Notes: generated by a model not told the origin, from the sequence alone. Positions 10,996-34,938 are shown, numbered from the stretch's first letter. The stretch: 64,000 bases of DNA from an uncultured Rikenellaceae bacterium (GCA_964639725.1 CAZXFB010000007.1:58177-122176); one strand, 5' to 3'. Translations and numbers: made by a program.

Positions 10996-11075
10996 TGTTC
11001 AAGTTAAAAAATTATCATTAATAAAATTCAAATAATATGTTCCATAACAAATAATGAAAGTTTTTGTATCAACAA

Positions 11076-12095: not shown

Positions 12096-12135
12096 TTTTA
12101 TAAAAGCAAATTATTAAAATGAGTAAAAAGAATAG

Positions 12136-13245: not shown

Positions 13246-13288
13246 AATAATATATTAAAAGGTTTCTAAGATAATTTTGATATAAAGT

Positions 13289-14578: not shown

Positions 14579-14673
14579 CAGTAAAAAAATAAAATGATTC
14601 TTAATATTTTAACTTCACTCTTCACATCTAAATGAGCTGAGATATAGATTTCTTATTCAGATTTTTAGCCGAA

Positions 14674-15822
14674 TTATTGATAGATCCAATCAATGTCTAT
14701 TCGTCTGATAACTGATCCCATGTTTGCCCAATTTGAATAACCCAATAATAAATATTTATCAGTAAAATGTATTGCTGAATAACAGAAGGTTCCTCCAGGG
14801 TCAACTTCAAGGTTTTTAATTTTCTCCCAGTTAATACCTTCATCTTTTGAAATAGCTATAGTCAGTGGAGTGCGTTTTTGATCAACACCATTATTATTCC
14901 ATACCATCAGAAGATCACCCGTTGAAGGAATTCTTGCAATGGAAGCAGGTGAACAGGGAGATTTTATCTCACTCCTCCCAACAGCACTCCATGAATCCCC
15001 TCCATCCATGGAATAAGAAACATACTGAACCCCTGAAGTAGTCCTCATAAACATAAAAATTCTGCCATCTTTCAATTCAATTAATCCTGGTTCCTGGGTT
15101 ATCACACTGTCAGGATTTGCTGCTTCCTTACCTGCCTTCCATGTTCTGCCGTTGTCATCTGAATAATAGCTCCAGATGCTTCCAATTCTCTCTTTAAAAG
15201 AGTTATGCAGTGCAACAGCCAGGAGAATACGTCCATTTTGCAATTGAATAACCCTGTTATTATTTAACACAAAATAACCAACTTTATCAGTTATACAGGG
15301 TTGCGGATCGCTCCAGGTTTCAGCTTCATCATCCGATATCCGGATTATTGGAATACAGTCGTTTTCTGCATTTATCCTCAAATAGAACAATGCAATCTCA
15401 CCATTCTTCAATCTGAGCAGTGAAACCGACATAACATTCATTTTTCCTTCCTGCTCAATGATCTTAACACTCTCTTTTGTCCAGGATTTACCATTATCAG
15501 TTGAGTATCTTCCTGCAAGATATGCGTTGCCGTTATCATCACCTGAAGACCCGGTATAATGAGTATAAATAAAAAGTATCCTGCCATCTTTAAGAGTAAC
15601 AAAATCTCCTTCACTATTTCGTGGATTATCAGTTCCGGGATCAAGCCGGAGCATAACATTTTTATTATTTGTTCCTGCTTTACTTGTTTCTGGTTGGCTA
15701 TTGCAGCCTGAAATAATAAGAATGAGCATGCTATAGGCAATAGATTTTACAATAGCTGAAAATCCAATCTTATTATAAATTCGTAAAGCCCTTAAGGTCC
15801 AATAGTTTTTAAAATCTTCCAT
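14674..15822 (-). CDS. Sialidase-like glycosidase, family A (lipoprotein)
   Basis: DNPRNSEGDFVTLKDGRILFIYTHYTG, STDNGKSW, MNVMSVSLLRLKNGEIALFYL, CITDK, ARIPSTGDL, QKRTPL, SKDEGINW and FCYSAIHF. Lipobox IISGC. Confidence 0.8.
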   Translation of the reverse strand: MEDFKNYWTLRALRIYNKIGFSAIVKSIAYSMLILIISGCNSQPETSKAGTNNKNVMLRLDPGTDNPRNSEGDFVTLKDGRILFIYTHYTGSSGDDNGNAYLAGRYSTDNGKSWTKESVKIIEQEGKMNVMSVSLLRLKNGEIALFYLRINAENDCIPIIRISDDEAETWSDPQPCITDKVGYFVLNNNRVIQLQNGRILLAVALHNSFKERIGSIWSYYSDDNGRTWKAGKEAANPDSVITQEPGLIELKDGRIFMFMRTTSGVQYVSYSMDGGDSWSAVGRSEIKSPCSPASIARIPSTGDLLMVWNNNGVDQKRTPLTIAISKDEGINWEKIKNLEVDPGGTFCYSAIHFTDKYLLLGYSNWANMGSVIRRIDIDWIYQ

Positions 15823-15843
15823 GTTACGGACAAGGTAAGGAGT

Positions 15844-17103
15844 TTAATACTTAATAAGTTTGTTGGTTTTTGACCAAATGACCCTGGCACTCCATACAGT
15901 TCCATCAGCTCCACGAGGATTTGGTTTATCTCCAACAACGAATTCGGCATCTGTAACCCATGACTCATCCTTTGTGATTGCTGAAGCTCCAAAATTTCCT
16001 AGCATAACACCACGCTCTGGCATAAGTATCTGCTCAGTTGCCCTTATAACTTTTAAGTTTATGGGATCAACCTGCGCAAGAAAAATCGGTGCACGGTTAC
16101 GAGCAATATGATCATTATTGGCACCTCTTCTTGTATATGAGAGAAACAAACCATCGCTATGTACTAACCAATGAGCCTGAGTGTTGTAGCTTCCCAGTTC
16201 CTGTCCGTCATCAAACAGCCATGGTTTGAATGCAGTGTAATTTAATCCGTCTTTGCTTGTTGTCACATAGCCTTTGAAGTCATTCCTCATTGTAAGAAAA
16301 TATGTGCCTTTATAAAGTGCCAGTGAAGGTTCGCCCAAACCACGTCCTCCTTTTACTGTCATCTCATTACCATGCTTTACATATGATAATGTTGTACCAT
16401 CAAAGGAACATTCAAAGACTGCCACTGAAGACTCATCTGACCCCTGTCCGCTAAAATAGAGTGGAAGTAAAATTGTTCCGTCAGGTTTTACAAGCCATTG
16501 CACACAACCCGGATTAACCAGGTAAAATTTAGAATTTAAATCAGGAACCCTGGCAAGCATTTTCCATGTTGACCATGAATTTTTAACAGGATCAAAAACA
16601 GCATACGCAGCGTCATGAGAACGTGGTTTATCTACCAGCTGTTTTCCTTCTTTACTGTACCTCACTTTAATTCCGATAGCTATAAGTTTACCAGTTTTCG
16701 CATGCCATCCCGGAGTAACGTCAGCAACGCTTACTGTTGTGCCATCAGGTTCAAATTGCCATGCCAGTTCTGGTATCTCAACTGGGTCAGACCAAGTCTT
16801 TCCAAGGTCATCAGTCCTCATAAAATACAATCCGGAATAGTAATCACTTACAACAAGATGCTTCTGGATTGTCATAATTACTGCCGGATTTCCACCCTTC
16901 CCAAATCCAGGAATTGCAGCAGCTCTGGGATGAAACCAGCAGAATTTTGGACTAAGTTCCTGATGAGCAACATCAGTCTGGACACGAAATCCAATTTGTT
17001 TTGTTTTTTCTTCAGGTTTTCCGGAAAAACCGCAAAGGATTATAATAGGAACAACCAAAAGCGAGATACCTACTAATAAATTTGTGTGGATGTTGATTTT
17101 CAT
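15844..17103 (-). CDS. Asp-box beta-propeller protein (family C, Sec/lipoprotein-type leader)
   Basis: Leader ending ILCG and the motif TDDLGKTWSDP. The C-terminal half is closely parallel to 37000-38373, for example SYNTQAHW, YTRRGANNDH(I/V)ARNRAP and DE(S/T)WVT. Confidence 0.65.
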   Translation of the reverse strand: MKINIHTNLLVGISLLVVPIIILCGFSGKPEEKTKQIGFRVQTDVAHQELSPKFCWFHPRAAAIPGFGKGGNPAVIMTIQKHLVVSDYYSGLYFMRTDDLGKTWSDPVEIPELAWQFEPDGTTVSVADVTPGWHAKTGKLIAIGIKVRYSKEGKQLVDKPRSHDAAYAVFDPVKNSWSTWKMLARVPDLNSKFYLVNPGCVQWLVKPDGTILLPLYFSGQGSDESSVAVFECSFDGTTLSYVKHGNEMTVKGGRGLGEPSLALYKGTYFLTMRNDFKGYVTTSKDGLNYTAFKPWLFDDGQELGSYNTQAHWLVHSDGLFLSYTRRGANNDHIARNRAPIFLAQVDPINLKVIRATEQILMPERGVMLGNFGASAITKDESWVTDAEFVVGDKPNPRGADGTVWSARVIWSKTNKLIKY

Positions 17104-17177: not shown

Positions 17178-18260
17178 TTACTTCCTGCCAGGAGGAACCC
17201 ACATAACCATCGGATCAGGCCCCAGACCTGTTTTAATAATGGCCTCAACAGTAAGAGTTTTCATGTCAATTACATGAACTCCGTCAGATTTTTGACCTGA
17301 AAAAGTTAATATTTCTTTGCCATTGGGATCAATCTCAGTTTTATCTGAATCCTCACAACCAACAAAAGCCCGTGTGCCATCAGGTGTTAATTCAATACCG
17401 ATAGCATAGTCTCCGACCCTTATTCTTTTTATTTCTTTATGAGTAGCCACATCAATTACAGTAAGTACACCCTCTTTTATCCATCCTGGTATCAGTGCAA
17501 GTTTGCCGTCATTTGTAAACTTAATACGTACAGGCATTCCAGGGCAGTCGAATGTTTCGAGAGCAATATTTGATGCCACGTCAATAATTGTTATCGTACC
17601 ACCTGTCTGATTAGCAGCCCAGAGATATTTTCCATCAGGTGTAAATGCCATACCTTCAACTCCACTACCACACTTTATCTGTGTTATAAGATTACCAGAC
17701 ACCCTGTCGATTACCGAAATATTCTCCGATACGATATTTGCTGTATAAAGTTTTTGCCCATCGGGTGAGATATAAACCATATGGGAGATTTTACCATTTG
17801 TCGGAATACCTCTCACCACTTCATTAGTCTTTGTATCAATCTCAACAACATATCCCGTTTGTCCTGCGGTAAAGTATGCATTTCTGCCATCGGGTGCCAT
17901 GGCTGAACCATGTATACGAGTAAATTCTCCGGTATTTATCTGTTTTATGTGCTTTCTGCCCACCAGGTCAATAAGTGAAATAGTATTACCGGGTGGTGCA
18001 TAATTTGTCAGATAGGCAAATCGTTGGTCTGGTGAAACAATTATCTCGTGCGGATTTGGACCAGTTCTTATTGTCTCAATTACTTTAAGGGTTCTAGGAT
18101 TGATAAAACATAACGAATTGGAATGTTTGTTGGCTACTAGCAAGAGAGGCTCAGGATTACTCTTTTCACTGGCTGACATAACATTAGCAACAAACAAAAT
18201 ATAAACTGTAATAACAGCACTCTTCATTATCTGAGAAATCAGAACTGAACCTCTCTTCAT
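17178..18260 (-). CDS. Secreted YVTN/YncE-type seven-bladed beta-propeller protein (possible lactonase-like)
   Basis: Signal peptide present. Repeated blades of the type G-x-x-P-x-x-I-x-x-S-P-D-G-x-x-x-Y-x-x-N: GPNPHEIIVSPDQRFAYLTN, HMVYISPDGQKLYTAN, GMAFTPDGKYLWAAN and IELTPDGTRAFV. Confidence 0.55.
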   Translation of the reverse strand: MKRGSVLISQIMKSAVITVYILFVANVMSASEKSNPEPLLLVANKHSNSLCFINPRTLKVIETIRTGPNPHEIIVSPDQRFAYLTNYAPPGNTISLIDLVGRKHIKQINTGEFTRIHGSAMAPDGRNAYFTAGQTGYVVEIDTKTNEVVRGIPTNGKISHMVYISPDGQKLYTANIVSENISVIDRVSGNLITQIKCGSGVEGMAFTPDGKYLWAANQTGGTITIIDVASNIALETFDCPGMPVRIKFTNDGKLALIPGWIKEGVLTVIDVATHKEIKRIRVGDYAIGIELTPDGTRAFVGCEDSDKTEIDPNGKEILTFSGQKSDGVHVIDMKTLTVEAIIKTGLGPDPMVMWVPPGRK

Positions 18261-18354: not shown

Positions 18355-19266
18355 TCACAATCGGGTAAGATCAATTTTTCTGAAAAACAATTCCGCACCT
18401 TCTGATTGTATCTGGATATGTCCGCTGCGAGGTTGGACATCAATGGCCTGGTTCATTAATGTACCATTCAGATATATTGTTATCTCTTGTCCTTTAACTA
18501 TACACTCAATTCTGTTCCATTTACCAACTGGCTTCTCAATGTTATTCTTTCCACGAAATCCTTTAACATCCTTCCATTCCGGATCACGTCCATACCAATT
18601 TATTCGTCCTCCATTAATTGTTACCGGATTTCCACCTGGTTTGAAGACATACGAGCCTCCTTGTTTTTCAGGTTCTACAGGACAGGTAAGTAAAAATGAA
18701 GGAGATCCGTCACCTACTACCAGCAAGTCGCCAGTTCCACCTTCAATAATCTGACATTCAATTGAATGCATCCATATACCTGAATATCCACCATCTTCTC
18801 CTTTTGAATGCAACAATACACCACTATCTCTTGCCTTATCAATACGTGGGGGAAACGTAATTTCACCATATTTAAACTCAACAACAAGTTTGTAATTCTC
18901 GAACTCATCATTTGTTGTTATGCAACCAAATTCCTCACCGGAGATTCGTATCAGATTTTCCCTGACTGTAAATACTTTATTCGGATCATTATCACGACCT
19001 TTTCCTTTAATAAAAGTGTACCAGCCGTCAAGGTTATTACCATTAAATAATTTGATTGTCGACTCTCCGGATGATTTTTTTGGTTTATTCTTACCACTCC
19101 GTGATTGAGCTGAACCTTGATCAACAATAATCAAAATTGTAAACAGCAAAATAATAGTTGAAACAGTCAGTCTCTTTATTTCAGATGTCATAATTATTTT
19201 TTTTATTAATTTCAGATTGGAGTCATTTCCGGAATGATTGCAGCTTTTTGAATTCAGTATGGTCAT
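18355..19266 (-). CDS. DUF1080 (3-keto-disaccharide hydrolase-like) secreted protein
   Basis: IKLFNGNNLDGWYTF, FENYKLVVEFKY, DSGVLLHS, ECQIIEGGTGDL, GKWNRIECIVKGQEITIYLNG and GHIQIQSEGAELFFRKIDL. The ATG at 19266 overlaps the upstream stop as ATGA. Met at 19191 (MTSEIKRL...) is an alternative start. Confidence 0.65.
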   Translation of the reverse strand: MTILNSKSCNHSGNDSNLKLIKKIIMTSEIKRLTVSTIILLFTILIIVDQGSAQSRSGKNKPKKSSGESTIKLFNGNNLDGWYTFIKGKGRDNDPNKVFTVRENLIRISGEEFGCITTNDEFENYKLVVEFKYGEITFPPRIDKARDSGVLLHSKGEDGGYSGIWMHSIECQIIEGGTGDLLVVGDGSPSFLLTCPVEPEKQGGSYVFKPGGNPVTINGGRINWYGRDPEWKDVKGFRGKNNIEKPVGKWNRIECIVKGQEITIYLNGTLMNQAIDVQPRSGHIQIQSEGAELFFRKIDLTRL

Positions 19267-20282
19267 TTCTTTGCATTCTGTTCTGCCGATTTGTCGGCAG
19301 CAAATACAACTTTGTGTGTTAACATTGCATCAGACAGGCTGGTTAATGGCATTTCCTTTCCCTCGTCAACTGCCTTAAAGAAAGCTTCGAACTGGACCTG
19401 ATAGGGATGATCTGACACATCACCGGAATCAAGCATTTTCATAGAGAGTTCACTCCATTTGCCTTTATTAAGTCCGCCCAGTTTTGTGGAATAGAACTTG
19501 TTATCAAGGAGAGATCCCTCACTGCCAACAAGGTGAAAATGGAAATAGTATGGTTGTAAACAATCAATTATGGAGGCAACTTTACCGACAGCACCATTCT
19601 TGAATTTTATTATTGATACAGAACTGGTAGGATATTCGTATTTCGAAAAGTCTTTATTGGAAGAAGATGCTGAATAACTGCTCACTGTATCAAATTCGCT
19701 GCCCATACATAATAGCAGGGCATCCATAGCATGACATCCAGCTGATAAAAGGCTGCTAACTGCAGCTTCTTTTTTTGTGTTCCAGCGAAACTGGCCATAC
19801 CAAGGTCCAATACCATGATAATAATCTACTTCGCCATAATGAATTTTTCCAAGCAAACCACTGTCAATAACAGCTTTAATAGAAAGGAGCTGACTTGAAA
19901 ACCTGCATTCAAAACAGACACAAGTCTTAACTCCGGCTTGTTTTACGGCTGCTTCAATAGCCATACAATCCTCCCATGTGAGGGCAAGGGGTTTCTCAAT
20001 GATAAGATGTTTTCCTGCTTTGGCAGCAGCAATAGCCTGTTTAGCATGTTCAGCAGGATAACTGCAGATAGAAACAGCATGAATTTCAGGATCAGCAAGC
20101 ATTTTTGAAAGGTCTGTATAGCAAGCTATTGTCCCGCCGTGTTTGGCACTTATTTCTGCAGAATCAAGTTTTCTGGAAGAACAGAGTGCAGTGACCTGCG
20201 CATATGAAGTATTATTTATTGCTGCAATGTGTGCTCCTGCGGCCCAGCTGTAACCAATTATACCAACATTATATTTCTTCAT
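19263..20282 (-). CDS. Gfo/Idh/MocA-family NAD(P)-dependent oxidoreductase (no leader)
   Basis: N-terminal Rossmann motif MKKYNVGIIGYSWAAGAH and the EKP motif in HLIIEKPLALT. Confidence 0.8.
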   Translation of the reverse strand: MKKYNVGIIGYSWAAGAHIAAINNTSYAQVTALCSSRKLDSAEISAKHGGTIACYTDLSKMLADPEIHAVSICSYPAEHAKQAIAAAKAGKHLIIEKPLALTWEDCMAIEAAVKQAGVKTCVCFECRFSSQLLSIKAVIDSGLLGKIHYGEVDYYHGIGPWYGQFRWNTKKEAAVSSLLSAGCHAMDALLLCMGSEFDTVSSYSASSSNKDFSKYEYPTSSVSIIKFKNGAVGKVASIIDCLQPYYFHFHLVGSEGSLLDNKFYSTKLGGLNKGKWSELSMKMLDSGDVSDHPYQVQFEAFFKAVDEGKEMPLTSLSDAMLTHKVVFAADKSAEQNAKK

Positions 20283-20541
20283 AGTTTATGATATTAATTA
20301 AAATTAGTTTTATAAGATTCAAGATGCATGATTGTAATTATACTAATATTCAAATATAATTTTTTTAATAAAGAGATACAATAACATAATTATAAATTAC
20401 AACCTTTACGTAAATAAAAAAAATATTGAACTTATGAAAGTTTGATTTGAATGAAGTTTGACAGAACTTCAATTTGAAAAAAATAGAATATTGACTATAT
20501 TTCCATTGAGTTTGAATAGCAGAAGTAAAATAATTAAAAGA

Positions 20542-21894
20542 ATGAAAAAGCAATCTAGAAGGAAGTTTATTGTTACTTCAGGTTCTGGTGCATTGTTCTC
20601 GATGGCTGCCAGCAGTATACCATCAGTGTTTAGTAATAATGAAGCAGGCAAACTTGCTTTATCAGGAGGAGATCCGGTGAGAAAGACGAAATTTCCATCC
20701 TGGCCTGTTTGGGATGAAAATGATGAAAAAGCAATCATCCCTGTGTTACGAAGCGGAGTATGGTCAAGACGTAATGTTGTTACTCAGGCTGAACAGAAAT
20801 TCGCCAAACTTATGGGTTCCAATTACTGTCTTCTGACTACAAACGGAACAAATGCTCTAGTTGCTGCTTTAAGAGCATTAGGTGTTGAAGGAGGTGATGA
20901 AGTAATTACGACCCCATGGAGTTGGATATCATCAATGGCTTCAATTTTCCTTAATAATGCGCTTCCCGTATTTGTTGACATTGATCCTGAAACATGGATG
21001 TTAAATGCAGACCAGATTGAGGCACAAATTAACGCTGACACAAAGGCAATTCTAGCTGTCCAGATCACCGGTGGAATATGTCATATGGATAAAGTAAATA
21101 ATATTGCCAAAAAGCATAATCTAAAGGTGGTTGAAGATGCCTGTGAGGCCCACATGGCAGAATGGAAGGGAAAGAAAGCAGGAACTCTCGGTGATCTTGG
21201 GTGCTTTAGTCTGCAAAATGGAAAACAGTTAACCTGTGGAGAGGGTGGTGCCATACTTGGAAACGACGAACGGATCATGGACCTATGTTATTCAGTACAT
21301 AATGTCGGAGCAGTATATGGCAAGTATATGCCTAGAGATAAAGGTACATTTCCTGTTTTAGGGACAAAAGCCAGAATGGCAGAATACCAGGCATCAATGG
21401 TAATAACACAGATGGATACACTTGAGCTGGAAACACAAAAAAGATGTGAAAATGCTGATTATCTATCATTAAAAATCGGGGAAATTCCCGGAATTGTTCC
21501 AAGGAAAGATTATCCTGAGACAAACCGTACTTCATACTATTATTATGGATTCAGGTTTAAAGAAAAAGAATTTGGTATAACTCGCGATGCTTTTGTGAAA
21601 GCTATCCAGGCAGAAGGCCTTCCTCCAAGTACCAATCTTGGTGTTACTTCCTATCCTCTTTATCAAAATGGTGTCGTAGATTCTGTAATCAGTTCAAGAA
21701 CATACCAGAAATTGTATTCTAAAAAGAGACTTGATGATTACCGTGCTTCATTAAATCTGCCGGAAGTGGAAAAATTATGTAAAGAAACTGTAGGTTTTCA
21801 TAGCAACACTTTGCTGGGTCCGAAATCAGATATGGATGATATTTACCGGGCTATACTTAAAGTATATGAGAACAGGAACCAGCTTAAAGGATAA
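20542..21894 (+). CDS. Tat-leader DegT/DnrJ/EryC1/StrS-family PLP aminotransferase
   Basis: I chose Met at 20542, giving MKKQSRRKFIVTSGSGALFSMAASS (a twin-arginine leader). Other motifs are TNGTNALVAALRAL, GDEVITTP, VVEDACEAH and the PLP-lysine block CFSLQNGKQLTCGEGGAI. The longer ORF from 20458 adds 28 aa that do not resemble a leader. Confidence 0.85.
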   Translation: MKKQSRRKFIVTSGSGALFSMAASSIPSVFSNNEAGKLALSGGDPVRKTKFPSWPVWDENDEKAIIPVLRSGVWSRRNVVTQAEQKFAKLMGSNYCLLTTNGTNALVAALRALGVEGGDEVITTPWSWISSMASIFLNNALPVFVDIDPETWMLNADQIEAQINADTKAILAVQITGGICHMDKVNNIAKKHNLKVVEDACEAHMAEWKGKKAGTLGDLGCFSLQNGKQLTCGEGGAILGNDERIMDLCYSVHNVGAVYGKYMPRDKGTFPVLGTKARMAEYQASMVITQMDTLELETQKRCENADYLSLKIGEIPGIVPRKDYPETNRTSYYYYGFRFKEKEFGITRDAFVKAIQAEGLPPSTNLGVTSYPLYQNGVVDSVISSRTYQKLYSKKRLDDYRASLNLPEVEKLCKETVGFHSNTLLGPKSDMDDIYRAILKVYENRNQLKG

Positions 21895-21952
21895 ACTATT
21901 AACCTTCATTACAAATGAAATGATAATCAAAAATAGATTTACAGGAGGAACC

Positions 21953-22936
21953 ATGAAAACAGAAAACTTTCTATTAAAACGTCCAGTGTTAATAACTATT
22001 ATTGCTCTTTTAGTTTTAGTTACAATTATAACATCTTTCAAATTATCTGATCCACGTTTGGTTCGATATGATGGACAAGAAAACATATCGGTTGAAGCTG
22101 CTAAAAAAAATCCCTCAATAGCTCCGGTTGCATCTCTAAGGATAGCTCTTGCCCAGGTAAGAAGGTGTGTATATATAAATGAGGGCATTAGGAAAATCGA
22201 CTCTATTTTGTCGGTATGCAGTCTTCAAAATGTAGATATAGTTTGCTTTCCTGAAACGTATATACCCGGTTTGCGTGGTGGAGGTGATGATTCCATGCTG
22301 CCTCCTCCTGATCAGCCGGCAATGGAAAAGGCACTTAAAGAAATAGAGAGATCATGCGGTAAATACAAAGTTGCGGCAATAGTAGGGATGGAATGGTTAA
22401 GCATTTCCGGACTTGAAAACCGTGCTTTTGTAATTTCAGATGAAGGTAAATTACTGGGACATCAGACTAAAAACCAGATTACCCCTGGGGGAGAAGAAAA
22501 ACATTATGTTCCTGAAGATACCCGAAGTCTATTTGTCCTAAAAGGTGTCACATTCGGAATTGTCATATGCCATGAAGGATGGCGTTTTCCTGAAACGGTA
22601 AGGTGGGCAGCGGTAAGAGGAGCTAAAATTGTTTTTCAACCTCAGGTGACCGGAGGTAATGAACCTGGAATATTTAAACCAAAGCCATGGGGAGACTCTT
22701 ACTATGAAATGGCAATGGTACTGCGGTCAAAAGAGAACTCTATCTATTTCGCAAGTGTAAATGAATGCATGAATAAGCAAAATTCCTCAACATCACTTAT
22801 TGACCCGGAAGGTAATATGATTGATCATTTACCCTGCGGTATTGAAGCAATAATGATAAAAGATATTGACCCTGCAAAAGCTACAGGATTTTATGCATCA
22901 CGGTACAGACCGGAACGATACAAGGAAGCCAAATAA
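21953..22936 (+). CDS. Membrane-anchored carbon-nitrogen hydrolase (nitrilase superfamily)
   Basis: Met at 21953 is preceded by AGGAGGA. The N-terminal TM segment is PVLITIIALLVLVTIITS. The Glu motif is CFPETYIPG and the catalytic Cys block is FGIVICHEGWRFPE. Confidence 0.7.
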   Translation: MKTENFLLKRPVLITIIALLVLVTIITSFKLSDPRLVRYDGQENISVEAAKKNPSIAPVASLRIALAQVRRCVYINEGIRKIDSILSVCSLQNVDIVCFPETYIPGLRGGGDDSMLPPPDQPAMEKALKEIERSCGKYKVAAIVGMEWLSISGLENRAFVISDEGKLLGHQTKNQITPGGEEKHYVPEDTRSLFVLKGVTFGIVICHEGWRFPETVRWAAVRGAKIVFQPQVTGGNEPGIFKPKPWGDSYYEMAMVLRSKENSIYFASVNECMNKQNSSTSLIDPEGNMIDHLPCGIEAIMIKDIDPAKATGFYASRYRPERYKEAK

Positions 22937-22969
22937 TCTTAATATACTTTCTGATATATCTATATAACC

Positions 22970-23896
22970 TCAGCTATTTTGAATTATTTTCTGGAGATAA
23001 TCTTTGGTTTTCAGCAAATATTCACTGTTTCTGCTGGCAAGTTCATATTCAATTGTAATACTGCCACTAAAATCCAGTTGCCTTAGAAAGGAGATTACCT
23101 CAGGAAAATTAACCTCTCCTGTTGGTATAGGAACCTCTTTCCCCAACTCATAGGGATTTGTCGGATAATTACCATCTTTTGCATGAAGAGCTCTGACATA
23201 TTTCCCCAGTACCTTTAATCCGTCAACAGGATTTGATTTCCCGTACATAACAAGGTTAGCCGTGTCATAATTCACGAACAGGTTACCTGTTCCAATATCT
23301 AAAATTGCACGTAAAAGGGCAACAGGAGTCTCCTGTCCTGTTTCAAAATAGATGTCAATACCTTTATTGAGTGCATATTCTCCCAGAGGTTTCATAGTGT
23401 CAACAAACTCAATATACAGGATATCCTTCGGGTCTTCAGGGATAAAACCAAAATGGGCATGAACTGCAGGGATACCTGCAGCTTTACAAAAATCAATACC
23501 CTGTTTAAATCGTTCCACCCGGGCAGTCCGGTTTTCGCGAGGAACAAGACCAATTGTTGAGGGGCCATCAGGGAAATTGTATTTGTAAACTCCGGGGCCC
23601 ATACAGATCAATGAAGTTGGCAATATCCTGTATTTTTCTAGTGTGGTAACCAACCTTGCTGCCAGTTCCGGTGAATAGCTCTTAAGGTTAAGCTGGCATG
23701 TAGGAAAACCCAGGTCTCTGACAATTTTTAAATCTTCTTCGGGATTATTGGCGGCAGAGATCACACCAAGTAAAATATCCTTAGAAGCTACTTTTATATC
23801 TGAGACCGGTGCTCTCCCGAAAGAGGAAATAGCAGCAGGCATGGCAGCAATTACAGCTGCGGAACTGATAAACTTCCTTCGATTTATTTTCGCCAT
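22970..23896 (-). CDS. Tat-leader xylose-isomerase-like TIM-barrel protein (sugar phosphate isomerase/epimerase family)
   Basis: Leader MAKINRRKFISSAAVIAAMPAAISSFG. Metal-ligand-like positions are spread as in the AP-endonuclease-2/xylose isomerase fold: AVHAHFG, YFETGQE, ALHAKDG and TIEYE. Confidence 0.7.
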   Translation of the reverse strand: MAKINRRKFISSAAVIAAMPAAISSFGRAPVSDIKVASKDILLGVISAANNPEEDLKIVRDLGFPTCQLNLKSYSPELAARLVTTLEKYRILPTSLICMGPGVYKYNFPDGPSTIGLVPRENRTARVERFKQGIDFCKAAGIPAVHAHFGFIPEDPKDILYIEFVDTMKPLGEYALNKGIDIYFETGQETPVALLRAILDIGTGNLFVNYDTANLVMYGKSNPVDGLKVLGKYVRALHAKDGNYPTNPYELGKEVPIPTGEVNFPEVISFLRQLDFSGSITIEYELASRNSEYLLKTKDYLQKIIQNS

Positions 23897-23908
23897 ATGA
23901 TTAATGTT

Positions 23909-25180
23909 TTATTTATCAAATTGTGAAAGATTTAACATTGGATCAAGTTTTGCATTTGAAAATATCATTTCGTCCCATAAAATTTCTTCACCAGCCATTG
24001 CAGCTGTTCTGCCCAATATTCCTGAGAGTGTCGATTCGGATCCTGAACGGGCTTCGTTGATATAGTTTCCTGTTTCTATACTCCTGACAAAGTCTTTATC
24101 CTTATTTGCATCAGCATCTGATAATGAAGAGAGAAAAATACCGGCAGCTCTCTGTTCCGGTGTCAGGACTGTATCCTTATTCTTCACAACACCTGAATCC
24201 CAGGGTTTTTCACCTGTAATAAATACTCCTCCACTGTAATGTGCCTCAGCTATACCTTTAGTTCCGATAAATCTGGCACATACATCACCTGATTGTTTTC
24301 CCTGCTGAACATTATAGTAGACAACTTTCACATTTTCAGGATAATCATAAAGAATCTGATAATTAGACCATGTGTCACCAAAACCGGTTCCTCCTTTTTT
24401 ACTTCCGGTACCAACTGCTTTTAACGGGTGTGCCTGTAAAGCCCAGTTACAAACATCAACCATATGTATTCCCTGGTCAACCAGACTACCCCCCGACAAT
24501 GCCTGAAAGTGATAATGATTCCTTATCCTTGCTTCATCATACGACATATTTTCATATGGTTTAACCGCCAGACCTGCTGCAATATAATATAATTGAGCAT
24601 TTACTATTTCACCCAGATCACCCTGCTGAATTCTTCTAATCATTTCAACATAAGCAGATGCAAACCTGATCTGAAAACCAATTGCAAGGCTGAGTTTACC
24701 TTTCGCCAATTCACCAAGCCTGATAACCTGCTGACATCCTGCAACATCTACAGCCACCGGTTTTTCAGAATAAACATGCTTACCAGCTGTAATTGCCGCC
24801 TCAATATACCCGGGATGCGAATAGCATGGAGAGGAGATGAGAACAGCATCAACATCTTTATTATTCAGAAGGGAAAGATATGCTTTTGAACCCTGATAAA
24901 TATTTGCTTTTGGTATCTCGGGCAATCCTTTTTCAGTATTTAGCTTATTTAAAACATTATTTGCATTCTGAATCCTGTCACTTAGCAGATCAGCCATTGC
25001 TATAATCGCAACGCCGGCGTTTTTGGACATTGAGGTGATAACGGCTGTTCCTCTGCCTCCGCAACCAATAATACCCATGCGTATTGCAGAATTGGCCTGT
25101 GACCCGAATGCTGTTCCAGGCTTTAGCAGCGTTATTGCTGATACAGCTGATGCGCTCTTTAGAAATGATCTTCTTTTCAT
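23909..25180 (-). CDS. Tat-leader Gfo/Idh/MocA-family oxidoreductase (candidate glycoside dehydrogenase)
   Basis: Leader MKRRSFLKSASAVSAITLL, Rossmann motif IRMGIIGCGGRG and EKP motif VYSEKPVA. The gap to the downstream TIM-barrel gene is 12 nt. Confidence 0.85.
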   Translation of the reverse strand: MKRRSFLKSASAVSAITLLKPGTAFGSQANSAIRMGIIGCGGRGTAVITSMSKNAGVAIIAMADLLSDRIQNANNVLNKLNTEKGLPEIPKANIYQGSKAYLSLLNNKDVDAVLISSPCYSHPGYIEAAITAGKHVYSEKPVAVDVAGCQQVIRLGELAKGKLSLAIGFQIRFASAYVEMIRRIQQGDLGEIVNAQLYYIAAGLAVKPYENMSYDEARIRNHYHFQALSGGSLVDQGIHMVDVCNWALQAHPLKAVGTGSKKGGTGFGDTWSNYQILYDYPENVKVVYYNVQQGKQSGDVCARFIGTKGIAEAHYSGGVFITGEKPWDSGVVKNKDTVLTPEQRAAGIFLSSLSDADANKDKDFVRSIETGNYINEARSGSESTLSGILGRTAAMAGEEILWDEMIFSNAKLDPMLNLSQFDK

Positions 25181-25227: not shown

Positions 25228-28182
25228 CTATTGTTTTGGCAAAGGGATTCCTTCACTTATTACTGTTACCTGAACCCGGGGATTAATTCCTCCTTCAGAC
25301 TTGCAGTTGAAAGAGATTTTGTTTTCTCCATCCCTGATTGTGGGAATAGTTCCTTCAAATGAAACATCTTTAATGAACTCGCCTTTTTTTCCGAATAACT
25401 TGCAATCGGAAGCTGATTTGAATTCAAGATACATTCCAGGTTCCATTTTAACCTGAAAGAGTATCTTTTCACTACCAATGGTTACAGAAGGGTTTTCAAC
25501 CAAAACCGGAACCATTTGCAATGCCTTAACCGGGCTTATGAGACATCCCACATCCCTCCCCATTGGAATATTATTGTACCATAACTGAAGTTTATCTACG
25601 CTTTTAAATTGTACTGTGTGACGATATGAATCGTAAACATAAAAACCGGAATCGGGCCAGATGTAATTACTGAATTCAGCTGATTCAATCTCAACAAGTT
25701 CAAAATATTTCCAGCCTTTGAAATCTATTTTCACAAAATGGTCACCACGTGCACCATGAGAAATTTGTTTTGGGCTTTCAATCCTCAGATTCAGTAGTTG
25801 TCCGTTGCCATCTCCCTTTATCCATACTCCAAGAGCCTGATTTTTATCAAGATCAAGCCATGGATCAAATTTCTTCTCCATTTTGATCCACATACCTTCC
25901 TGCTGAGTTGAGTTTTTGTTCACAGCAGAAAACAGTGCAGTTCTCTCCCCTTTTACTTTTTCTACTGACACCTTTAACTCACCATAGACTCCTCCAGCTT
26001 TTCCTTCAACAACAAACTCGTCATTTTTTGAAAAATCAGCGATAACAACTGATGTAGGATCATTATATGATTTGACAGACATTAAAGGTTCTATCCTCAG
26101 CTTAACAGGTTGCCGGGCAAACTCATTATTCACAATCCATTCTGATGAAGGATGATCAGGTCCTGCAACCTTGTGTTTTCTGTACATAACAGGTTTAAAG
26201 TTCCAATCACCGTTCTCTTCCTTAAACAATGTGAACTCTCTGCCAGGCTGACGAAGAATAGCACGTACATTATCACTGAAATAATTCTGATGTCTTAATG
26301 TTTCGTATTGTTTTATAATTTCTGTGATTCGCCTGAAAAGAGGGGTCTCATCAAGTGTTTTTTTGTCAACACCTCCCAGCATCGACAAACCGGCATTATT
26401 ACCTATCATTTTACAGCACAGATATTCAATATCATCAGGAAAAGTGGGTTCTACCTGTGGAGGATTCCAAGTTTGATTGCCCCACCATCCGAGATGAAGA
26501 GGGAGAAGAAGTCCACCATTTTCAACCACCGAATATTTTTCAATCAATGGTGAATGGCCACGCCATAAACCATGTTCATTTTCATTTGACTTTATGATGG
26601 GTGGGAGGAACAACCGGGTTGATTTGATAGCTGCGGAATGAATGTCCTCAAATCGTTTATATCCACGAACAGGCCTGTCCCATGCCTGCCAGCGAGAACG
26701 GTAATGCCACCAGTGATGAGACATTGAACTCATCTCCATTCCAACAGGATGCTCCAACTGCCTTGCAACGGCAAATATAAACTTTGTTCCATAATACCAG
26801 AAGTTTTCTTCCCCGCCAAGTATATCACTGCCATCGATGGCATCGAAATATATTCCGTCAAATCCACAGTTGCTTACAATTTCTGCTGTTCTGCGAGCTA
26901 TTTCATCAAATAGGGCAGTTTCGGGGCCTGGTACAAACCTGCCAAACATCTCACGAAGGTGAAAGAGTTTCTCATCAACCGGGTGAGATGAAGCTTTTGT
27001 TCCGTTGACACCTCGTTTGCAGCCAGTAAATTTATATGGAGGTGTATCGGTAACACCACTGAATTCAATCAACTCACCACCAATTCGCAGAGATAGACTG
27101 TTTCTTACAAAAAAGCCGGTTGTAGTTGATATATCTGAAGTGGACTCCCTGACAATAATCGCACTATCATCGGCACCCATTGGTTCTGCCAGAGTAAATG
27201 AATTGAAGTATCCAAGATCTTCACTCGGAACAGGTGTTACATATTTTGAATTTTTATCAATAAAAAAAGCATAAGTATGAAAAATGGATGAAATTCCAGC
27301 TTCATGCAGTTTGTCATTTATGCGTTTATATGAATCCCAACCGTCAGGCCATTTTTCTTTATTAAGTTCAAAATCTCCAAATTTAAAAAATGCACCCCCA
27401 CCATGATTATCTATCTGATTAAAACCTAAACTTCGACACATCTCAATCCACTCTTCTACAGTACTTTCTGTAAGGGTTCCAAAGTTCATTAGGTATGAAC
27501 CATAACCCTCTTTCTGCATCAGAGCCCAGGCACCTCCCTTATCAGAATGAGGAACATCTTTTGCTTTCTCCATAATACTCCGGATAGCAGGTAATACTTT
27601 TGGATAAGGAAGACCAAGCAGATTAATTTCTGCTCCAACCAGTCCAAACCTGCTGTAACATGTTGCCCACAGATCAGTCTGGAGAGCAGGAATCTGACGG
27701 ACATGAGTAAATAGATTCATTGAAAGAACACATGCCCCAAACGGTTCGTATGGCATACCCTCTAGCTTTAAAGGAACATTAAGAAATGTCAGAGATTCAA
27801 TATCTCCGGTAACAGATTTAACTTTTAAAGTAATGTGGTCCTTTGCTTTCCTGAGAAGAATATCGGCCTTAACACCAGAATCACCAAAATCCATTAAAAG
27901 GTGATTACCTGAAATTCTTAACGAGCTAATATCATATTTCTTACTTTTACATGTAACAAAGGCACATTTTGAAACCGTGTCAGTATCGAGGTAATCCGTA
28001 CCTGTCACTTTATCAGTAAAATGAAGGTTTTTCCCGTCGCAACCAATCTTATAGAAAAAATTGCCATTTTCAATTACAACTGATTCTTCTGTTGCAGAAG
28101 AGCATTGATATAAGATTATACCAGCTAGAATAAAGCAGAATAACTGTAATATACGGTTCATTCTAAAAAAGATTATTTTCAT
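25228..28182 (-). CDS. Large secreted protein (984 aa) of unknown family, possible glycoside hydrolase
   Basis: A long uninterrupted ORF with a signal/lipobox-like leader (ILYQCSS). The central region alternates hydrophobic strands with helices and has Asp/Glu/Trp-rich loops (GFNQIDNHGGG, IYFDAIDGS, HLGWWGN). I recognise no named motif. Confidence 0.45.
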   Translation of the reverse strand: MKIIFFRMNRILQLFCFILAGIILYQCSSATEESVVIENGNFFYKIGCDGKNLHFTDKVTGTDYLDTDTVSKCAFVTCKSKKYDISSLRISGNHLLMDFGDSGVKADILLRKAKDHITLKVKSVTGDIESLTFLNVPLKLEGMPYEPFGACVLSMNLFTHVRQIPALQTDLWATCYSRFGLVGAEINLLGLPYPKVLPAIRSIMEKAKDVPHSDKGGAWALMQKEGYGSYLMNFGTLTESTVEEWIEMCRSLGFNQIDNHGGGAFFKFGDFELNKEKWPDGWDSYKRINDKLHEAGISSIFHTYAFFIDKNSKYVTPVPSEDLGYFNSFTLAEPMGADDSAIIVRESTSDISTTTGFFVRNSLSLRIGGELIEFSGVTDTPPYKFTGCKRGVNGTKASSHPVDEKLFHLREMFGRFVPGPETALFDEIARRTAEIVSNCGFDGIYFDAIDGSDILGGEENFWYYGTKFIFAVARQLEHPVGMEMSSMSHHWWHYRSRWQAWDRPVRGYKRFEDIHSAAIKSTRLFLPPIIKSNENEHGLWRGHSPLIEKYSVVENGGLLLPLHLGWWGNQTWNPPQVEPTFPDDIEYLCCKMIGNNAGLSMLGGVDKKTLDETPLFRRITEIIKQYETLRHQNYFSDNVRAILRQPGREFTLFKEENGDWNFKPVMYRKHKVAGPDHPSSEWIVNNEFARQPVKLRIEPLMSVKSYNDPTSVVIADFSKNDEFVVEGKAGGVYGELKVSVEKVKGERTALFSAVNKNSTQQEGMWIKMEKKFDPWLDLDKNQALGVWIKGDGNGQLLNLRIESPKQISHGARGDHFVKIDFKGWKYFELVEIESAEFSNYIWPDSGFYVYDSYRHTVQFKSVDKLQLWYNNIPMGRDVGCLISPVKALQMVPVLVENPSVTIGSEKILFQVKMEPGMYLEFKSASDCKLFGKKGEFIKDVSFEGTIPTIRDGENKISFNCKSEGGINPRVQVTVISEGIPLPKQ

Positions 28183-29029: not shown

Positions 29030-29126
29030 TTATTGATAAATATTAAAAACTATTTTCATACAGTCTTATGTGCTCCCTAAACTATAAATAATCAATGATA
29101 AAAGAAAGCATATATTGATAGATTTG

Positions 29127-31550: not shown

Positions 31551-31668
31551 TGTCTCTATCAGGTATTATACTAAAGAATAATCATCATTCAAAAAATCCA
31601 TCCCGAAACCAGTTTTCTGTTAAATCCTTATTAAATGAGTTGTTGTTACTCAGTTTAATAGTCTGGTA

Positions 31669-33923: not shown

Positions 33924-33965
33924 TATATTTTGTTAAGTTGATAAATTGCATTTAATCAGTGTATT

Positions 33966-33984: not shown

Positions 33985-34010
33985 CGAATCTTAAACAGGA
34001 GATTTGATAA

Positions 34011-34934: not shown

Positions 34935-34938
34935 TATC

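What the first reader, a model, noticed from the sequence alone, without database searches (positions are those of the whole stretch)
20542..22936. Exported DegT aminotransferase paired with a membrane-anchored nitrilase-superfamily amidase
These are the only two plus-strand genes in the interior of the locus. Their stop and start are 58 nt apart, and the second is preceded by AGGAGGA. The second protein has the Glu and Cys motifs of the carbon-nitrogen hydrolase catalytic set (CFPETY, ICHEGW) behind a single N-terminal TM helix, so its catalytic domain should face the periplasm. Carbon-nitrogen hydrolases cleave non-peptide amides. Next to an amino-sugar transaminase, the simplest reading is N-deacylation of an N-acyl amino sugar followed by transamination of the freed amine. 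That is a deacetylate-then-deaminate route performed outside the cytoplasm. This is inference only.
Basis: inference. Interest (0 to 1): 0.55.

Follow-up and report, generated by a model that had tools for sequence, protein, structure and literature searches.

The report
Exported aminotransferase–amidase pair in keto-glycoside cluster
Two co-oriented genes, a Tat-exported sugar aminotransferase and an exported nitrilase-superfamily amidase, sit in the middle of a periplasmic "oxidise-then-eliminate" sugar-cleaving gene cluster in a Bacteroidota glycan-utilisation locus. They may let that pathway handle amino sugars, but their substrates are unknown.

Summary
ORF 20542-21894 (+) is a DegT-family aminotransferase with a Tat motif that all 19 fetched homologues share. 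ORF 21953-22936 (+) is a CN_hydrolase with an intact Glu-Lys-Glu-Cys set behind one hydrophobic N-terminal helix.

Extracytoplasmic location is well supported. Close relatives of the amidase carry Sec, lipoprotein-like or Tat signals instead of the helix. Whether the helix is an uncleaved anchor is unresolved. The AGGAGGA is not conserved.

The pair lies between DUF1080 + cytosolic Gfo/Idh/MocA and Tat-TIM-barrel + Tat-Gfo/Idh/MocA. These are the four families, with the same kinds of predicted localisation, of the published 3-keto-glycoside pathway (AL1-4 / BT2156-2159).

The pair recurs in at least five independent contigs of one Bacteroidota clade, but it is separable. One syntenic contig has only the amidase, another only the aminotransferase, and 0 of 80 distant amidase loci hold a DegT.

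My best reading (confidence about 0.35) is an amino-sugar branch of that pathway. The amidase unmasks or removes an amide nitrogen. The aminotransferase turns the sugar amine into the ketone that the lyases need.

Rivals are a glutamine-transaminase/omega-amidase ratchet, two independent de-decoration enzymes, aminocyclitol metabolism, and a passenger amidase. I file it as a new variant of a known kind, of moderate interest.

The parts
20542..21894 (+). Tat-exported DegT/DnrJ/EryC1/StrS-family PLP aminotransferase (450 aa). The Tat signal covers roughly residues 1-31 (nt 20542-20634).
   Evidence: Pfam E 1.5e-83. Best solved relatives are BtrR-type L-glutamine:2-deoxy-scyllo-inosose aminotransferases, E 4e-59, aligned over query residues 49-438. 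The RR motif is conserved in 19/19 homologues.
21953..22936 (+). Exported carbon-nitrogen hydrolase (327 aa). N-terminal hydrophobic helix at residues 11-29 (nt 21983-22039), low-confidence linker to about residue 54, then the catalytic domain with E101/E147/K173/C206.
   Evidence: Pfam E 3.4e-20. Invariant tetrad. AF2 model pLDDT 80. Relatives carry Sec, lipoprotein-like or Tat signals.
20283..20541 (.). Divergent intergenic region. It holds a conserved block at about 20340-20375 (ATACTAATATTCAAATATAATTTTTTTAATAAAGAG) that L081 and L098 share.
   Evidence: Alignment A2. In L081 the same block sits directly upstream of the amidase gene, with no DegT in between.
19263..20282 (-). Gfo/Idh/MocA oxidoreductase without a signal peptide (AL4-like cytosolic reductase candidate).
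   Evidence: Pfam. Syntenic in P0002, P0004, L081, L091 and L098.
18355..19266 (-). DUF1080 / 3-keto-disaccharide hydrolase family protein with an N-terminal signal (AL2-like lyase/hydratase candidate).
   Evidence: Pfam E 3.9e-30. The role of the family is taken from 10.1101/2024.03.25.586180.
22970..23896 (-). Tat-signal xylose-isomerase-like TIM barrel (AL1-like 3-keto-glycoside lyase candidate), convergent with the amidase gene with 33 nt between the stops.
   Evidence: Pfam AP_endonuc_2 E 5.7e-28. N-terminus MAKINRRKFISSAAV.
23909..25180 (-). Tat-signal Gfo/Idh/MocA oxidoreductase (AL3-like glycoside 3-dehydrogenase candidate).
   Evidence: Pfam. N-terminus MKRRSFLKSASAV. It gives weak, sub-threshold NCBIfam hits to BT_2158_fam and BT_2159_fam.
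25228..28182 (-). 984-aa lipoprotein of unknown family that co-occurs with the amidase in all four syntenic contigs. Possibly a clan GH-D (GH101/GH129/GH36-like) alpha-galacto-type glycosidase.
   Evidence: Synteny. The Foldseek hits of a low-confidence model are mostly clan GH-D enzymes, including all of the strongest. Treat this as a lead only.

Best explanation
The two genes form a short plus-strand transcription unit. It is inserted in the divergent/convergent centre of a periplasmic 3-keto-glycoside (oxidation, then beta-elimination) cluster in a Bacteroidota polysaccharide-utilisation locus. They most likely add an amino-sugar branch to that pathway.

The Tat-exported, PLP-loaded DegT enzyme belongs to the subfamily that acts on free keto-cyclitols and not on nucleotide sugars. 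It interconverts a ring amine and a ring ketone on a glycoside in the periplasm. For a residue that carries an amino group where the Gfo/Idh/MocA dehydrogenase would need a hydroxyl, transamination gives the same keto-glycoside. The TIM-barrel and DUF1080 lyases can then cleave that keto-glycoside by elimination.

The exported CN hydrolase acts on the same class of substrate. It hydrolyses a small amide-type nitrogen decoration (N-formyl, N-acetyl, N-carbamoyl or a carboxamide). In the coupled version this frees the amine that the aminotransferase uses.

Shown: gene structure, families, catalytic residues, export signals, synteny and its limits.
Inferred: the substrate class, the direction of transamination, the coupling of the two enzymes, the amino acceptor, and co-transcription (inferred only from the 58-nt gap and the lack of a hairpin).
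For: 1. The four flanking genes match the composition and the kinds of predicted localisation of the AL1-AL4/BT2156-2159 pathway. They are a Tat Gfo/Idh/MocA, a cytosolic Gfo/Idh/MocA, an exported TIM barrel and an exported DUF1080.
2. The DegT's best solved relatives are BtrR-type aminotransferases that act on non-nucleotide inososes, E 4e-59, aligned over query residues 49-438. This fits a compartment without NDP-sugars.
3. A sugar 3-dehydrogenase paired with a DegT-type aminotransferase is the established logic of kanosamine synthesis (RifL/RifK, NtdC/NtdA; PMC8788734). The reaction proposed here is that step run in reverse.
4. Tat-DegT homologues recur next to Gfo + TIM genes, in L091 (Bacteroidota) and L097 (Bryobacterales).
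5. The DegT-amidase adjacency recurs in the window, the P0002 and P0004 contigs, L086/L087 and L098. Matching contig lengths suggest three further pairs.
6. In L086 the pair survived a deletion that removed the TIM and Gfo genes.
7. The exported Bacteroidota amidase clade also sits with carbohydrate genes when DegT is absent. L081 has the same slot. In L082 it lies directly upstream of a GH27-like gene. L083 has DUF1080 + TIM + a triple RidA-domain lipoprotein + an amidohydrolase. This points to a sugar-borne substrate.
8. A second, unrelated Tat-signal CN hydrolase lies in another locus with two Tat-DegTs and three ceramidase-like amidases.
9. One family member, P0116, is fused to an alpha/beta-hydrolase esterase domain.
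Against: - No assay exists for any member, and no characterised close relative of the amidase exists. The best PDB profile hit is N-carbamoylputrescine amidohydrolase at E 1.5e-15. Foldseek cannot separate decarbamoylases, short-chain amidases and Nit2.
- N-acetyl-sugar deacetylation has no precedent in this superfamily, to my knowledge.
- The amidase family is very broad (more than 7,400 homologues). It is 45-62% identical across phyla in the 80 fetched loci, many members have no signal peptide, and no neighbour is conserved. DegT is within 6 kb in 0 of those 80 loci. That suggests a common small-molecule substrate and not a special sugar.
- The two genes occur singly in the same syntenic slot (L081, L091), so coupling is not obligate.
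- A periplasmic transaminase needs a keto-acid acceptor, and its source is unknown.
- The flanking Gfo genes score far below the NCBIfam cut-offs for BT_2158 and BT_2159. The match to the AL pathway is therefore at family level only.
Confidence: 0.35

Rival explanations
1. Glutamine-transaminase plus omega-amidase ratchet. Like BtrR and StsC, the DegT uses L-glutamine as its amino donor to aminate a periplasmic keto-sugar or inosose, producing 2-oxoglutaramate. The CN hydrolase hydrolyses that amide to 2-oxoglutarate and ammonia, which makes the amination irreversible.
For: - The best solved relatives of the DegT are L-glutamine:2-deoxy-scyllo-inosose aminotransferases.
- Omega-amidases belong to the nitrilase superfamily, and the 'ketoglutaramate ratchet' is an established coupling (PMC6302742).
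- This is canonical primary-amide chemistry for the fold.
- Mouse Nit2 is among the top structural matches.
- It explains why a transaminase gene is directly followed by a CN-hydrolase gene.
- A second, unrelated Tat CN hydrolase accompanies Tat-DegTs in L094.
Against: - It implies amination of sugars in a catabolic locus, with glutamine spent in the periplasm.
- The exported amidase clade occurs with carbohydrate genes but without any aminotransferase in L081, L082 and L083.
- DegT occurs without it in L091, L093 and L097.
- By sequence profile, Nit2 (E 1.8e-7) ranks below the decarbamoylases.
- The donor specificity of this DegT is not known.
Confidence: 0.2
2. Two independent de-decoration enzymes share a promoter. 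The amidase removes an amide from the target glycan or its fragments, for example a uronamide, N-formyl or carbamoyl group, and releases ammonia or a small acid. The aminotransferase separately deals with a free amino sugar. Neither uses the other's product.
For: - Each gene occurs alone in the same slot (L081, L091).
- The amidase lies next to GH27-like genes or clan GH-D-like genes in 5 of 8 contexts.
- One member is fused to an esterase (P0116).
- Primary-amide hydrolysis is the commonest chemistry of the superfamily.
Against: - Adjacency recurs in at least five independent contigs and persisted through a flanking deletion in L086.
- The gap is 58 nt with no terminator.
Confidence: 0.25
3. 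Aminocyclitol (inosamine-type) metabolism and not glycoside cleavage. The Gfo/Idh/MocA enzymes act as inositol dehydrogenases, the TIM barrel as an inosose isomerase or dehydratase, and the DegT as an inosose/inosamine aminotransferase.
For: - The best NCBIfam hits of both Gfo proteins are to myo-inositol 2-dehydrogenase IolG, sub-threshold.
- The DegT is closest to inosose aminotransferases.
- Gfo + TIM + DegT also occur in rhizopine/inosamine systems (my own knowledge).
Against: - Three of the enzymes carry Tat signals and one a Sec signal, and they sit in a SusC/SusD locus full of glycosidases.
- DUF1080 is a 3-keto-glycoside lyase/hydratase family.
- All IolG scores are far below the cut-off (85.9 and 117.9 bits against 355).
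Confidence: 0.07
4. The amidase is a passenger: a general periplasmic nitrogen-scavenging or metabolite-repair amidase with no role in the glycan pathway.
For: The family is widespread, highly conserved, mostly stand-alone and often cytoplasmic.
Against: In Bacteroidota, every recovered contig that extends beyond the gene places it among carbohydrate genes, and four contigs share the same synteny.
Confidence: 0.1

Closest known systems
AL1-AL5 / BT2156-BT2160 3-keto-glycoside pathway (Nasseri et al., bioRxiv 10.1101/2024.03.25.586180; Liu et al. 2021, PMC8121099)
   Same: The same four protein families lie directly around the pair, with the same kinds of predicted localisation: a Tat Gfo/Idh/MocA dehydrogenase, a cytosolic Gfo/Idh/MocA, an exported sugar-phosphate-isomerase-like TIM barrel and an exported DUF1080. 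The host phylum is also Bacteroidota.
   Different: - No aminotransferase and no CN hydrolase is part of the published clusters.
- The Gfo proteins here are not equivalogs of BT2158/BT2159 (51.9 and 41.7 bits against cut-offs of 750 and 650).
- The TIM barrel here has a Tat signal, whereas AL1 has a Sec signal.
- The cluster here is embedded in a very large locus.
Kanosamine pathways RifL/RifK and NtdC/NtdA (PMC8788734)
   Same: A sugar 3-dehydrogenase is paired with a DegT-family PLP aminotransferase that interconverts 3-keto and 3-amino sugars. RifK (PDB 1b9h) matches the DegT here at E 1.8e-44 and NtdA at E 7e-25.
   Different: Those pathways are cytoplasmic and biosynthetic, and act on UDP-glucose or glucose-6-phosphate. 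Here the enzymes are exported, no nucleotide or phosphate handle is expected, and the proposed direction is catabolic.
BtrR/BtrS and StsC L-glutamine:(2-deoxy-)scyllo-inosose aminotransferases
   Same: They are the best solved relatives (E 4e-59 to 5e-54). The alignment covers query residues 49-438, including the C-terminal region. The substrates are not nucleotide-linked.
   Different: They have no signal peptide and belong to antibiotic biosynthetic clusters. The donor specificity of the protein here is unknown.
Glutamine transaminase + omega-amidase (Nit2) couple (PMC6302742)
   Same: A transaminase gene is followed by a nitrilase-superfamily amidase gene. A primary-amide by-product would be removed.
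   Different: The amidase here is not a Nit2-branch member by sequence (E 1.8e-7, no NCBIfam equivalog). Both proteins are exported. The amidase also occurs without any transaminase.
PtaA and PvdN, Tat-exported periplasmic PLP enzymes of pyoverdine tailoring (PMC6206403)
   Same: A PLP enzyme is exported folded through Tat and works in the periplasm. That review calls such a location unusual.
   Different: They belong to a different aminotransferase family and act on a siderophore glutamate side chain. They have no link to glycan catabolism.
N-carbamoylputrescine amidohydrolase, beta-ureidopropionase and D-carbamoylase branch of the nitrilase superfamily
   Same: These give the best profile matches (E 1.5e-15, 1.5e-11 and 5e-8). 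They share the Glu-Lys-Glu-Cys tetrad and the C-x-x-x-W/F-P-E region. Their products are free amines.
   Different: - Structural alignments show only about 16-20% identity.
- TIGR03381 (AguB) scores 31.8 bits against a cut-off of 410.
- The protein here has an export signal.
- It carries its own invariant motifs (PGLRGG, QTKNQITPGGE, ICHEGWRYPETVRW).
Flavonifractor plautii GalNAc deacetylase + GH36 galactosaminidase (PDB 9awt, 8x1b; the pathway is from my own knowledge)
   Same: The logic is to deacylate first and then cleave the amino sugar. The 984-aa neighbour gives fold matches to that galactosaminidase and to other clan GH-D enzymes.
   Different: The deacetylase there is not a CN hydrolase, and no transaminase is involved. 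The fold match rests on a low-confidence model.

Membership tests
Nitrilase superfamily (CN_hydrolase, PF00795) | Pfam score above the gathering threshold | tested here: met
   72.9 bits against a cut-off of 23.2, E 3.4e-20, covering profile positions 1-251 of 256.
Nitrilase superfamily (CN_hydrolase, PF00795) | Catalytic Glu-Lys-Cys plus second Glu | tested here: met
   E101, E147, K173 and C206 are invariant in 22 sequences. They align to the catalytic positions of N-carbamoylputrescine amidohydrolase.
Nitrilase superfamily (CN_hydrolase, PF00795) | Alpha-beta-beta-alpha sandwich fold | tested here: met
   AF2 model pLDDT 80. Foldseek probability 1.00 to more than 50 superfamily structures, TM (target-normalised) 0.7-0.8.
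Apolipoprotein N-acyltransferase (Lnt) | Multi-span N-terminal membrane domain plus CN-hydrolase domain; TIGR00546 score above its cut-off | tested here: not met
   There is a single hydrophobic helix and 327 aa in total. The score is 21.6 bits against a cut-off of 132.9.
Glutamine-dependent NAD+ synthetase | CN-hydrolase glutaminase domain fused to a C-terminal synthetase domain | tested here: not met
   No second domain is present. NF010588 scores 46.5 bits against a cut-off of 479 and matches only profile positions 4-173 of 546.
Omega-amidase / Nit2 branch | Sequence membership in the Nit branch | tested here: not met
   Profile E 1.8e-7 to mouse Nit2, ranked below the decarbamoylases. The deaminated-glutathione amidase model scores 32.3 bits against a cut-off of 355.
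Omega-amidase / Nit2 branch | Hydrolysis of 2-oxoglutaramate | not testable with these tools
   This needs an enzyme assay.
N-carbamoylputrescine amidase (AguB) | TIGR03381 equivalog score | tested here: not met
   31.8 bits against a cut-off of 410.25.
DegT/DnrJ/EryC1/StrS aminotransferases (PF01041) | Pfam score above threshold and the PLP Schiff-base lysine | tested here: met
   281.4 bits against a cut-off of 19.8. K228 in SLQNGK aligns with the BtrR lysine. D198 in VVEDACEAH is present.
L-glutamine:inosose aminotransferase subfamily (BtrR/StsC type) | Closest similarity over the full length including the C-terminal region; glutamine as donor; non-nucleotide substrate | tested here: inconclusive
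   They are the best PDB hits, E 4e-59, over residues 49-438. Donor and substrate cannot be tested here. No NCBIfam equivalog is reached.
Tat-exported proteins | S/T-R-R-x-F-L-K-type motif followed by a weakly hydrophobic stretch; conserved among homologues | tested here: met
   SRRKFI at residues 5-10. The following stretch has mean Kyte-Doolittle 1.2. 19/19 homologues carry the motif. Actual export was not tested.
AL/BT2156-2160-type 3-keto-glycoside cluster | Co-located Tat Gfo/Idh/MocA, cytosolic Gfo/Idh/MocA, exported TIM-barrel lyase and exported DUF1080 | tested here: met
   All four families lie within 18355-25180 with the expected kinds of signals.
AL/BT2156-2160-type 3-keto-glycoside cluster | Equivalog-level similarity of the dehydrogenases to BT2158/BT2159 | tested here: not met
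   For the Tat Gfo protein, NF058561 scores 51.9 bits against 750 and NF058563 scores 41.7 bits against 650.
AL/BT2156-2160-type 3-keto-glycoside cluster | Formation and elimination of 3-keto-glycosides | not testable with these tools
   This needs biochemistry.

The most novel reading that the evidence does not exclude
Transamination-initiated glycoside cleavage. A Tat-exported PLP aminotransferase converts an amino-sugar residue, unmasked by an exported nitrilase-superfamily amidase, into a keto-glycoside in the periplasm. Non-hydrolytic lyases then cleave it by beta-elimination. This would be a third way to start the keto-glycoside route, besides NAD- and flavin/cytochrome-dependent oxidation. 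It would also give a large, uncharacterised family of periplasmic DegT enzymes in glycan-utilisation loci a catabolic role, and give the nitrilase superfamily a sugar-amide substrate.
Probability: 0.25. Interest if true: 0.75.

Novelty: new variant of a known kind. Interest (0 to 1): 0.5.

Why it matters
The keto-glycoside (oxidise, eliminate, hydrate, reduce) route was recognised only recently as a broad alternative to classical glycosidases. Its known weakness is that it needs a free hydroxyl at the position to be oxidised.

If an exported aminotransferase supplies the ketone from an amine, the route would extend to amino sugars. These are abundant in bacterial cell-surface glycans and are often resistant to glycosidases.

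It would also assign a function to a large family of Tat-signal DegT proteins found in glycan-utilisation loci of Bacteroidota and Acidobacteriota. It would add to the very few known periplasmic PLP enzymes. And it would give an entry point into a widespread CN-hydrolase family (thousands of members) that has no characterised representative.

Even if the coupling is wrong, the pair marks loci whose target glycan probably carries nitrogen decorations.

Tried and rejected
Rejected on domain architecture and NCBIfam scores.
- **Conserved neighbours of the amidase across 80 GTDB loci.** None was found. There is no DegT within 6 kb even at E 1e-2. The commonest neighbours reach only 7-8 of 80 loci.
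- **Metagenome scan with the amidase.** Only 5 loci came back, and 3 were useful.
- **Assigning the amidase to a branch by structure.** Foldseek scores N-carbamoylputrescine amidohydrolase, Nit2, Nesterenkonia amidase and D-carbamoylase alike, at E about 1e-18 and about 16-20% identity. This is not discriminating.
- **The Shine-Dalgarno argument.** AGGAGGA is not conserved in three orthologous loci.
- **Sigma-70 promoter and terminator scan.** The counts are close to the shuffled expectation. It is informative only for the absence of a hairpin between the genes. One Bacteroidota-type TAnnTTTG motif was found on the minus strand only.
- **Literature search for periplasmic DegT enzymes in glycan loci.** Nothing relevant was found. 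PDB 8gyh could not be traced, and 8y96 is unrelated.
- **Organism name through cluster members.** No names came back. Names of homologues of the 984-aa protein point to Bacteroidales/Prolixibacteraceae.
- **Structure of the 984-aa neighbour.** The model is poor (pLDDT 64.5), so its clan GH-D fold matches are only a lead.
- **The CN hydrolase in L094.** It is not a homologue of the window's amidase at BLAST level.


Full report
**Observation**

The first runs from the ATG at 20542 to the stop at 21894 (450 aa). A longer TTG-initiated reading from 20458 only adds 28 poorly coding residues. It is a DegT/DnrJ/EryC1/StrS aminotransferase (Pfam E 1.5e-83). It keeps the Schiff-base lysine (K228 in SLQNGK) and the Asp of VVEDACEAH. 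Its N-terminus MKKQSRRKFIVTSGSGALFSMAASS has a twin-arginine motif at residues 5-10, followed by a weakly hydrophobic stretch (mean Kyte-Doolittle 1.2).

The second ORF starts at the ATG at 21953, 58 nt after the first stop, and ends at 22936 (327 aa). It is a CN_hydrolase (E 3.4e-20). In a 22-sequence alignment E101 (CFPETY), E147, K173 and C206 (ICHEGW) are invariant, so the enzyme should be active. Residues 11-29 are strongly hydrophobic (mean 2.65). The AF2 model (pLDDT 80) shows a helix at 10-30, a low-confidence linker to about residue 54, and then the catalytic sandwich. No terminator-like hairpin lies between the genes.

AGGAGGA is at 21943-21949, but it is missing before the orthologous start codons in L081, L086 and L098. 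I treat it as incidental.

**Where the proteins work**

All 19 fetched homologues of the DegT protein carry [ST]RRx[FLM][LIM] near the N-terminus. They are 52-92% identical and include Bryobacterales/Acidobacteriota records. This is a large family of Tat-signal DegT proteins, not a one-off.

For the amidase, the closest relatives share a helix that ends in L/I-T-S-F. Other relatives at 60-75% identity have ordinary Sec signal peptides, a lipoprotein-like signal, or Tat signals. More distant members (262-265 aa) have no signal at all.

Extracytoplasmic location of the window's enzyme is therefore well supported. Whether its helix stays as an anchor or is cleaved after the conserved Ser cannot be decided here.

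The window is a Bacteroidota-type glycan-utilisation locus. It holds:
- SusC (48414-51641), SusD (46882-48360) and an AraC regulator;
- a GH78 rhamnosidase;
- a rhamnose-type non-phosphorylative catabolic set;
- twelve ORFs with clear BNR_2 sialidase-like hits and one weaker hit.

Four genes lie immediately around the pair:
- DUF1080 (18355-19266), with an export signal;
- a Gfo/Idh/MocA without a signal (19263-20282);
- a Tat-signal xylose-isomerase-like TIM barrel (22970-23896);
- a Tat-signal Gfo/Idh/MocA (23909-25180).

These are the four families of the recently described keto-glycoside pathway, with the same kinds of predicted localisation. In that pathway a Tat dehydrogenase (AL3) makes the 3-keto-glycoside. 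The 'sugar phosphate isomerase' (AL1) and DUF1080 (AL2) proteins act as 1,2-lyases and hydratases. A cytosolic Gfo enzyme (AL4) reduces the product (10.1101/2024.03.25.586180; BT2156-2160 in PMC8121099).

The match is at family level only. The NCBIfam models for BT2158 and BT2159 are hit far below their cut-offs.

**Conservation of the pair**

Among close relatives, the order DUF1080 <- Gfo <- | -> DegT -> amidase | <- TIM <- Tat-Gfo <- 983-aa protein is identical on the contigs of P0004 and P0002. L098 keeps Gfo <- | -> DegT -> amidase, here with a lipoprotein-type amidase and a 280-nt spacer. L086/L087 keep the pair at 81% identity each. There the TIM and Gfo genes are gone, a 36-residue remnant of the Tat-Gfo gene is left, and housekeeping genes follow. 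Equal contig lengths and sources suggest three more pairs: P0003/P0121, P0008/P0136 and P0013/P0138.

The pair is separable, however:
- L081 has the same flanks and the same conserved promoter-region block, but the amidase gene follows it directly with no DegT.
- L091 has Gfo, a GH106, DegT and then directly TIM and Tat-Gfo, with no amidase.
- L082 has the amidase directly upstream of a GH27-like gene.
- L083 has it near DUF1080, a TIM barrel, a triple RidA-domain lipoprotein, a cytochrome-c DUF7133 protein and an amidohydrolase.
- L084 has a Tat-signal member next to hydantoinase A/B genes.
- In 80 loci from other phyla (45-62% identity) no DegT lies within 6 kb and no neighbour is conserved.

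Tat-DegT homologues occur in other glycan loci without this amidase:
- L093 has two tandem DegT genes after SusC/D.
- L097, from Bryobacterales, has a Gfo + TIM pair 3 kb away.
- L094/L095 have three ceramidase-like amidases, sulfatases, two Tat-DegTs and a different Tat-signal CN hydrolase with no BLAST similarity to the window's enzyme.

**What the enzymes resemble**

The DegT's best solved relatives are BtrR-type L-glutamine:2-deoxy-scyllo-inosose aminotransferases (E 4e-59, query residues 49-438). They are followed by a scyllo-inositol transaminase, AHBA synthase RifK, perosamine synthases and the Kdo8N transaminase. So it belongs to the part of the family that handles substrates without a nucleotide handle, which is what a periplasmic enzyme would meet.

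The amidase has no close characterised relative. A family profile gives N-carbamoylputrescine amidohydrolase E 1.5e-15, beta-ureidopropionase 1.5e-11, D-carbamoylase 5e-8 and Nit2 1.8e-7. Foldseek scores these and the Nesterenkonia short-chain amidase alike. No NCBIfam equivalog is approached. It is not Lnt-like and not NAD-synthetase-like.

**Mechanism**

I commit, at about 0.35, to an amino-sugar branch of the keto-glycoside route. The aminotransferase supplies the ring ketone from a ring amine. This is the kanosamine step (3-dehydrogenase plus DegT-type transaminase: RifL/RifK, NtdC/NtdA; PMC8788734) run backwards. The lyases can then act on residues that the dehydrogenase cannot oxidise. 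The amidase removes a small amide-type nitrogen decoration from the same substrates. In the coupled version this frees the amine.

Three things favour a sugar-borne substrate for the amidase:
- its constant carbohydrate context in Bacteroidota, even without DegT;
- the nitrogen-handling company it keeps (DegT, RidA-like proteins, amidohydrolase);
- the esterase fusion in P0116.

Three things speak against:
- the breadth and conservation of the family, including cytoplasmic stand-alone members;
- the lack of precedent for sugar N-deacetylation in this superfamily;
- the unsolved question of the periplasmic amino acceptor. The same question is open for PtaA, one of the few known periplasmic transaminases (PMC6206403).

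**Rivals**

The strongest mechanistic rival is the glutamine-transaminase/omega-amidase ratchet (PMC6302742). It fits the BtrR similarity and canonical amidase chemistry. But it implies amination in a catabolic locus, and it does not explain the amidase in L081, L082 and L083.

Independent de-decoration roles (0.25), aminocyclitol metabolism (0.07) and a passenger amidase (0.1) remain possible.

**Verdict**

The compartment and the general logic are plausible. The specific chemistry is unproven, and the decisive context was missed.
- It is a new variant of a known kind: a keto-glycoside cluster carrying two accessory nitrogen-handling enzymes.
- Interest is moderate (0.5). It gives a concrete, testable hypothesis for two large uncharacterised exported families, but everything beyond family, signal and synteny is inference.

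Noticed in passing
window 1156-17103 and 32793-46683: Twelve ORFs have clear BNR_2 (sialidase-like) Pfam hits and one more has a weak hit. Five of the clear ones lie in a row at 41921-46683 next to SusD/SusC. This is an unusual paralogue expansion, and the target sugar is unknown.
   Followed up: partly
window 25228-28182 (-): A 984-aa lipoprotein with no Pfam family apart from a sub-threshold CBM_11 hit. More than 120 homologues at 65-76% identity are all named 'hypothetical' (Bacteroidales, Prolixibacteraceae, Mangrovibacterium). A low-confidence AF2 model matches mostly clan GH-D enzymes, which include all of the strongest hits (GH101, GH129, GH36 including an alpha-galactosaminidase, GH31). 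It is present in all four syntenic contigs that carry the amidase.
   Followed up: partly
L094/L095 1-21419 (GCA_942492865.1, OW818650.1): Another glycan-utilisation locus combines three Sec-signal ceramidase-like amidases, two sulfatases, two Tat-signal DegT aminotransferases, a cytochrome c554-like protein, SusC/D, an esterase and a Tat-signal CN hydrolase of a different family. This is a second, independent co-occurrence of exported amidases with exported DegT enzymes.
   Followed up: partly
L083 2242-9251: A lipoprotein with three RidA/L-PSP domains lies beside a TIM barrel, DUF1080, a DUF7133-HEAT-cytochrome c protein and an Amidohydro_1 enzyme, close to the amidase homologue P0019. This may be imine/enamine handling in a keto-glycoside cluster.
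   Followed up: partly
L086 3133-3240 (-): A 36-residue remnant (94% identical) of the C-terminus of the Tat Gfo/Idh/MocA gene lies just after the DegT-amidase pair, followed by unrelated housekeeping genes. It looks like a deletion scar that removed the lyase and dehydrogenase genes but kept the pair.
   Followed up: partly
L007, L009, L012, L014, L017 about 6850-8400: In Latescibacterota the amidase homologue is followed directly by a secreted YncE-like beta-propeller. A YncE-like propeller also lies at window 17178-18260 and in the P0004 contig.
   Followed up: no
P0116 (520 aa): An amidase family member is fused to a C-terminal alpha/beta-hydrolase (esterase / DLH / Peptidase_S9-like) domain.
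   Followed up: partly
L084/L085 1361-7496: A Tat-signal amidase homologue (P0040) is flanked by hydantoinase A and B genes and a class-V aminotransferase-like gene. This recalls hydantoinase/carbamoylase pairs or 5-oxoproline-type lactam chemistry.
   Followed up: no
window 28229-36877: An SDR, a GH78 rhamnosidase, an Amidohydro_2, a Gfo-like protein, an HpcH/HpaI aldolase and a URO-D-like protein lie together. This looks like a non-phosphorylative deoxy-sugar (rhamnose-type) catabolic set. The URO-D-family gene is an odd member for a glycan locus.
   Followed up: no
L098 3553-3832: The DegT-amidase spacer is 280 nt here, against 58 nt in the window, and contains an inverted repeat (CAGGAAT...ATTCCTG). 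The two genes may be separately controlled in that relative.
   Followed up: no
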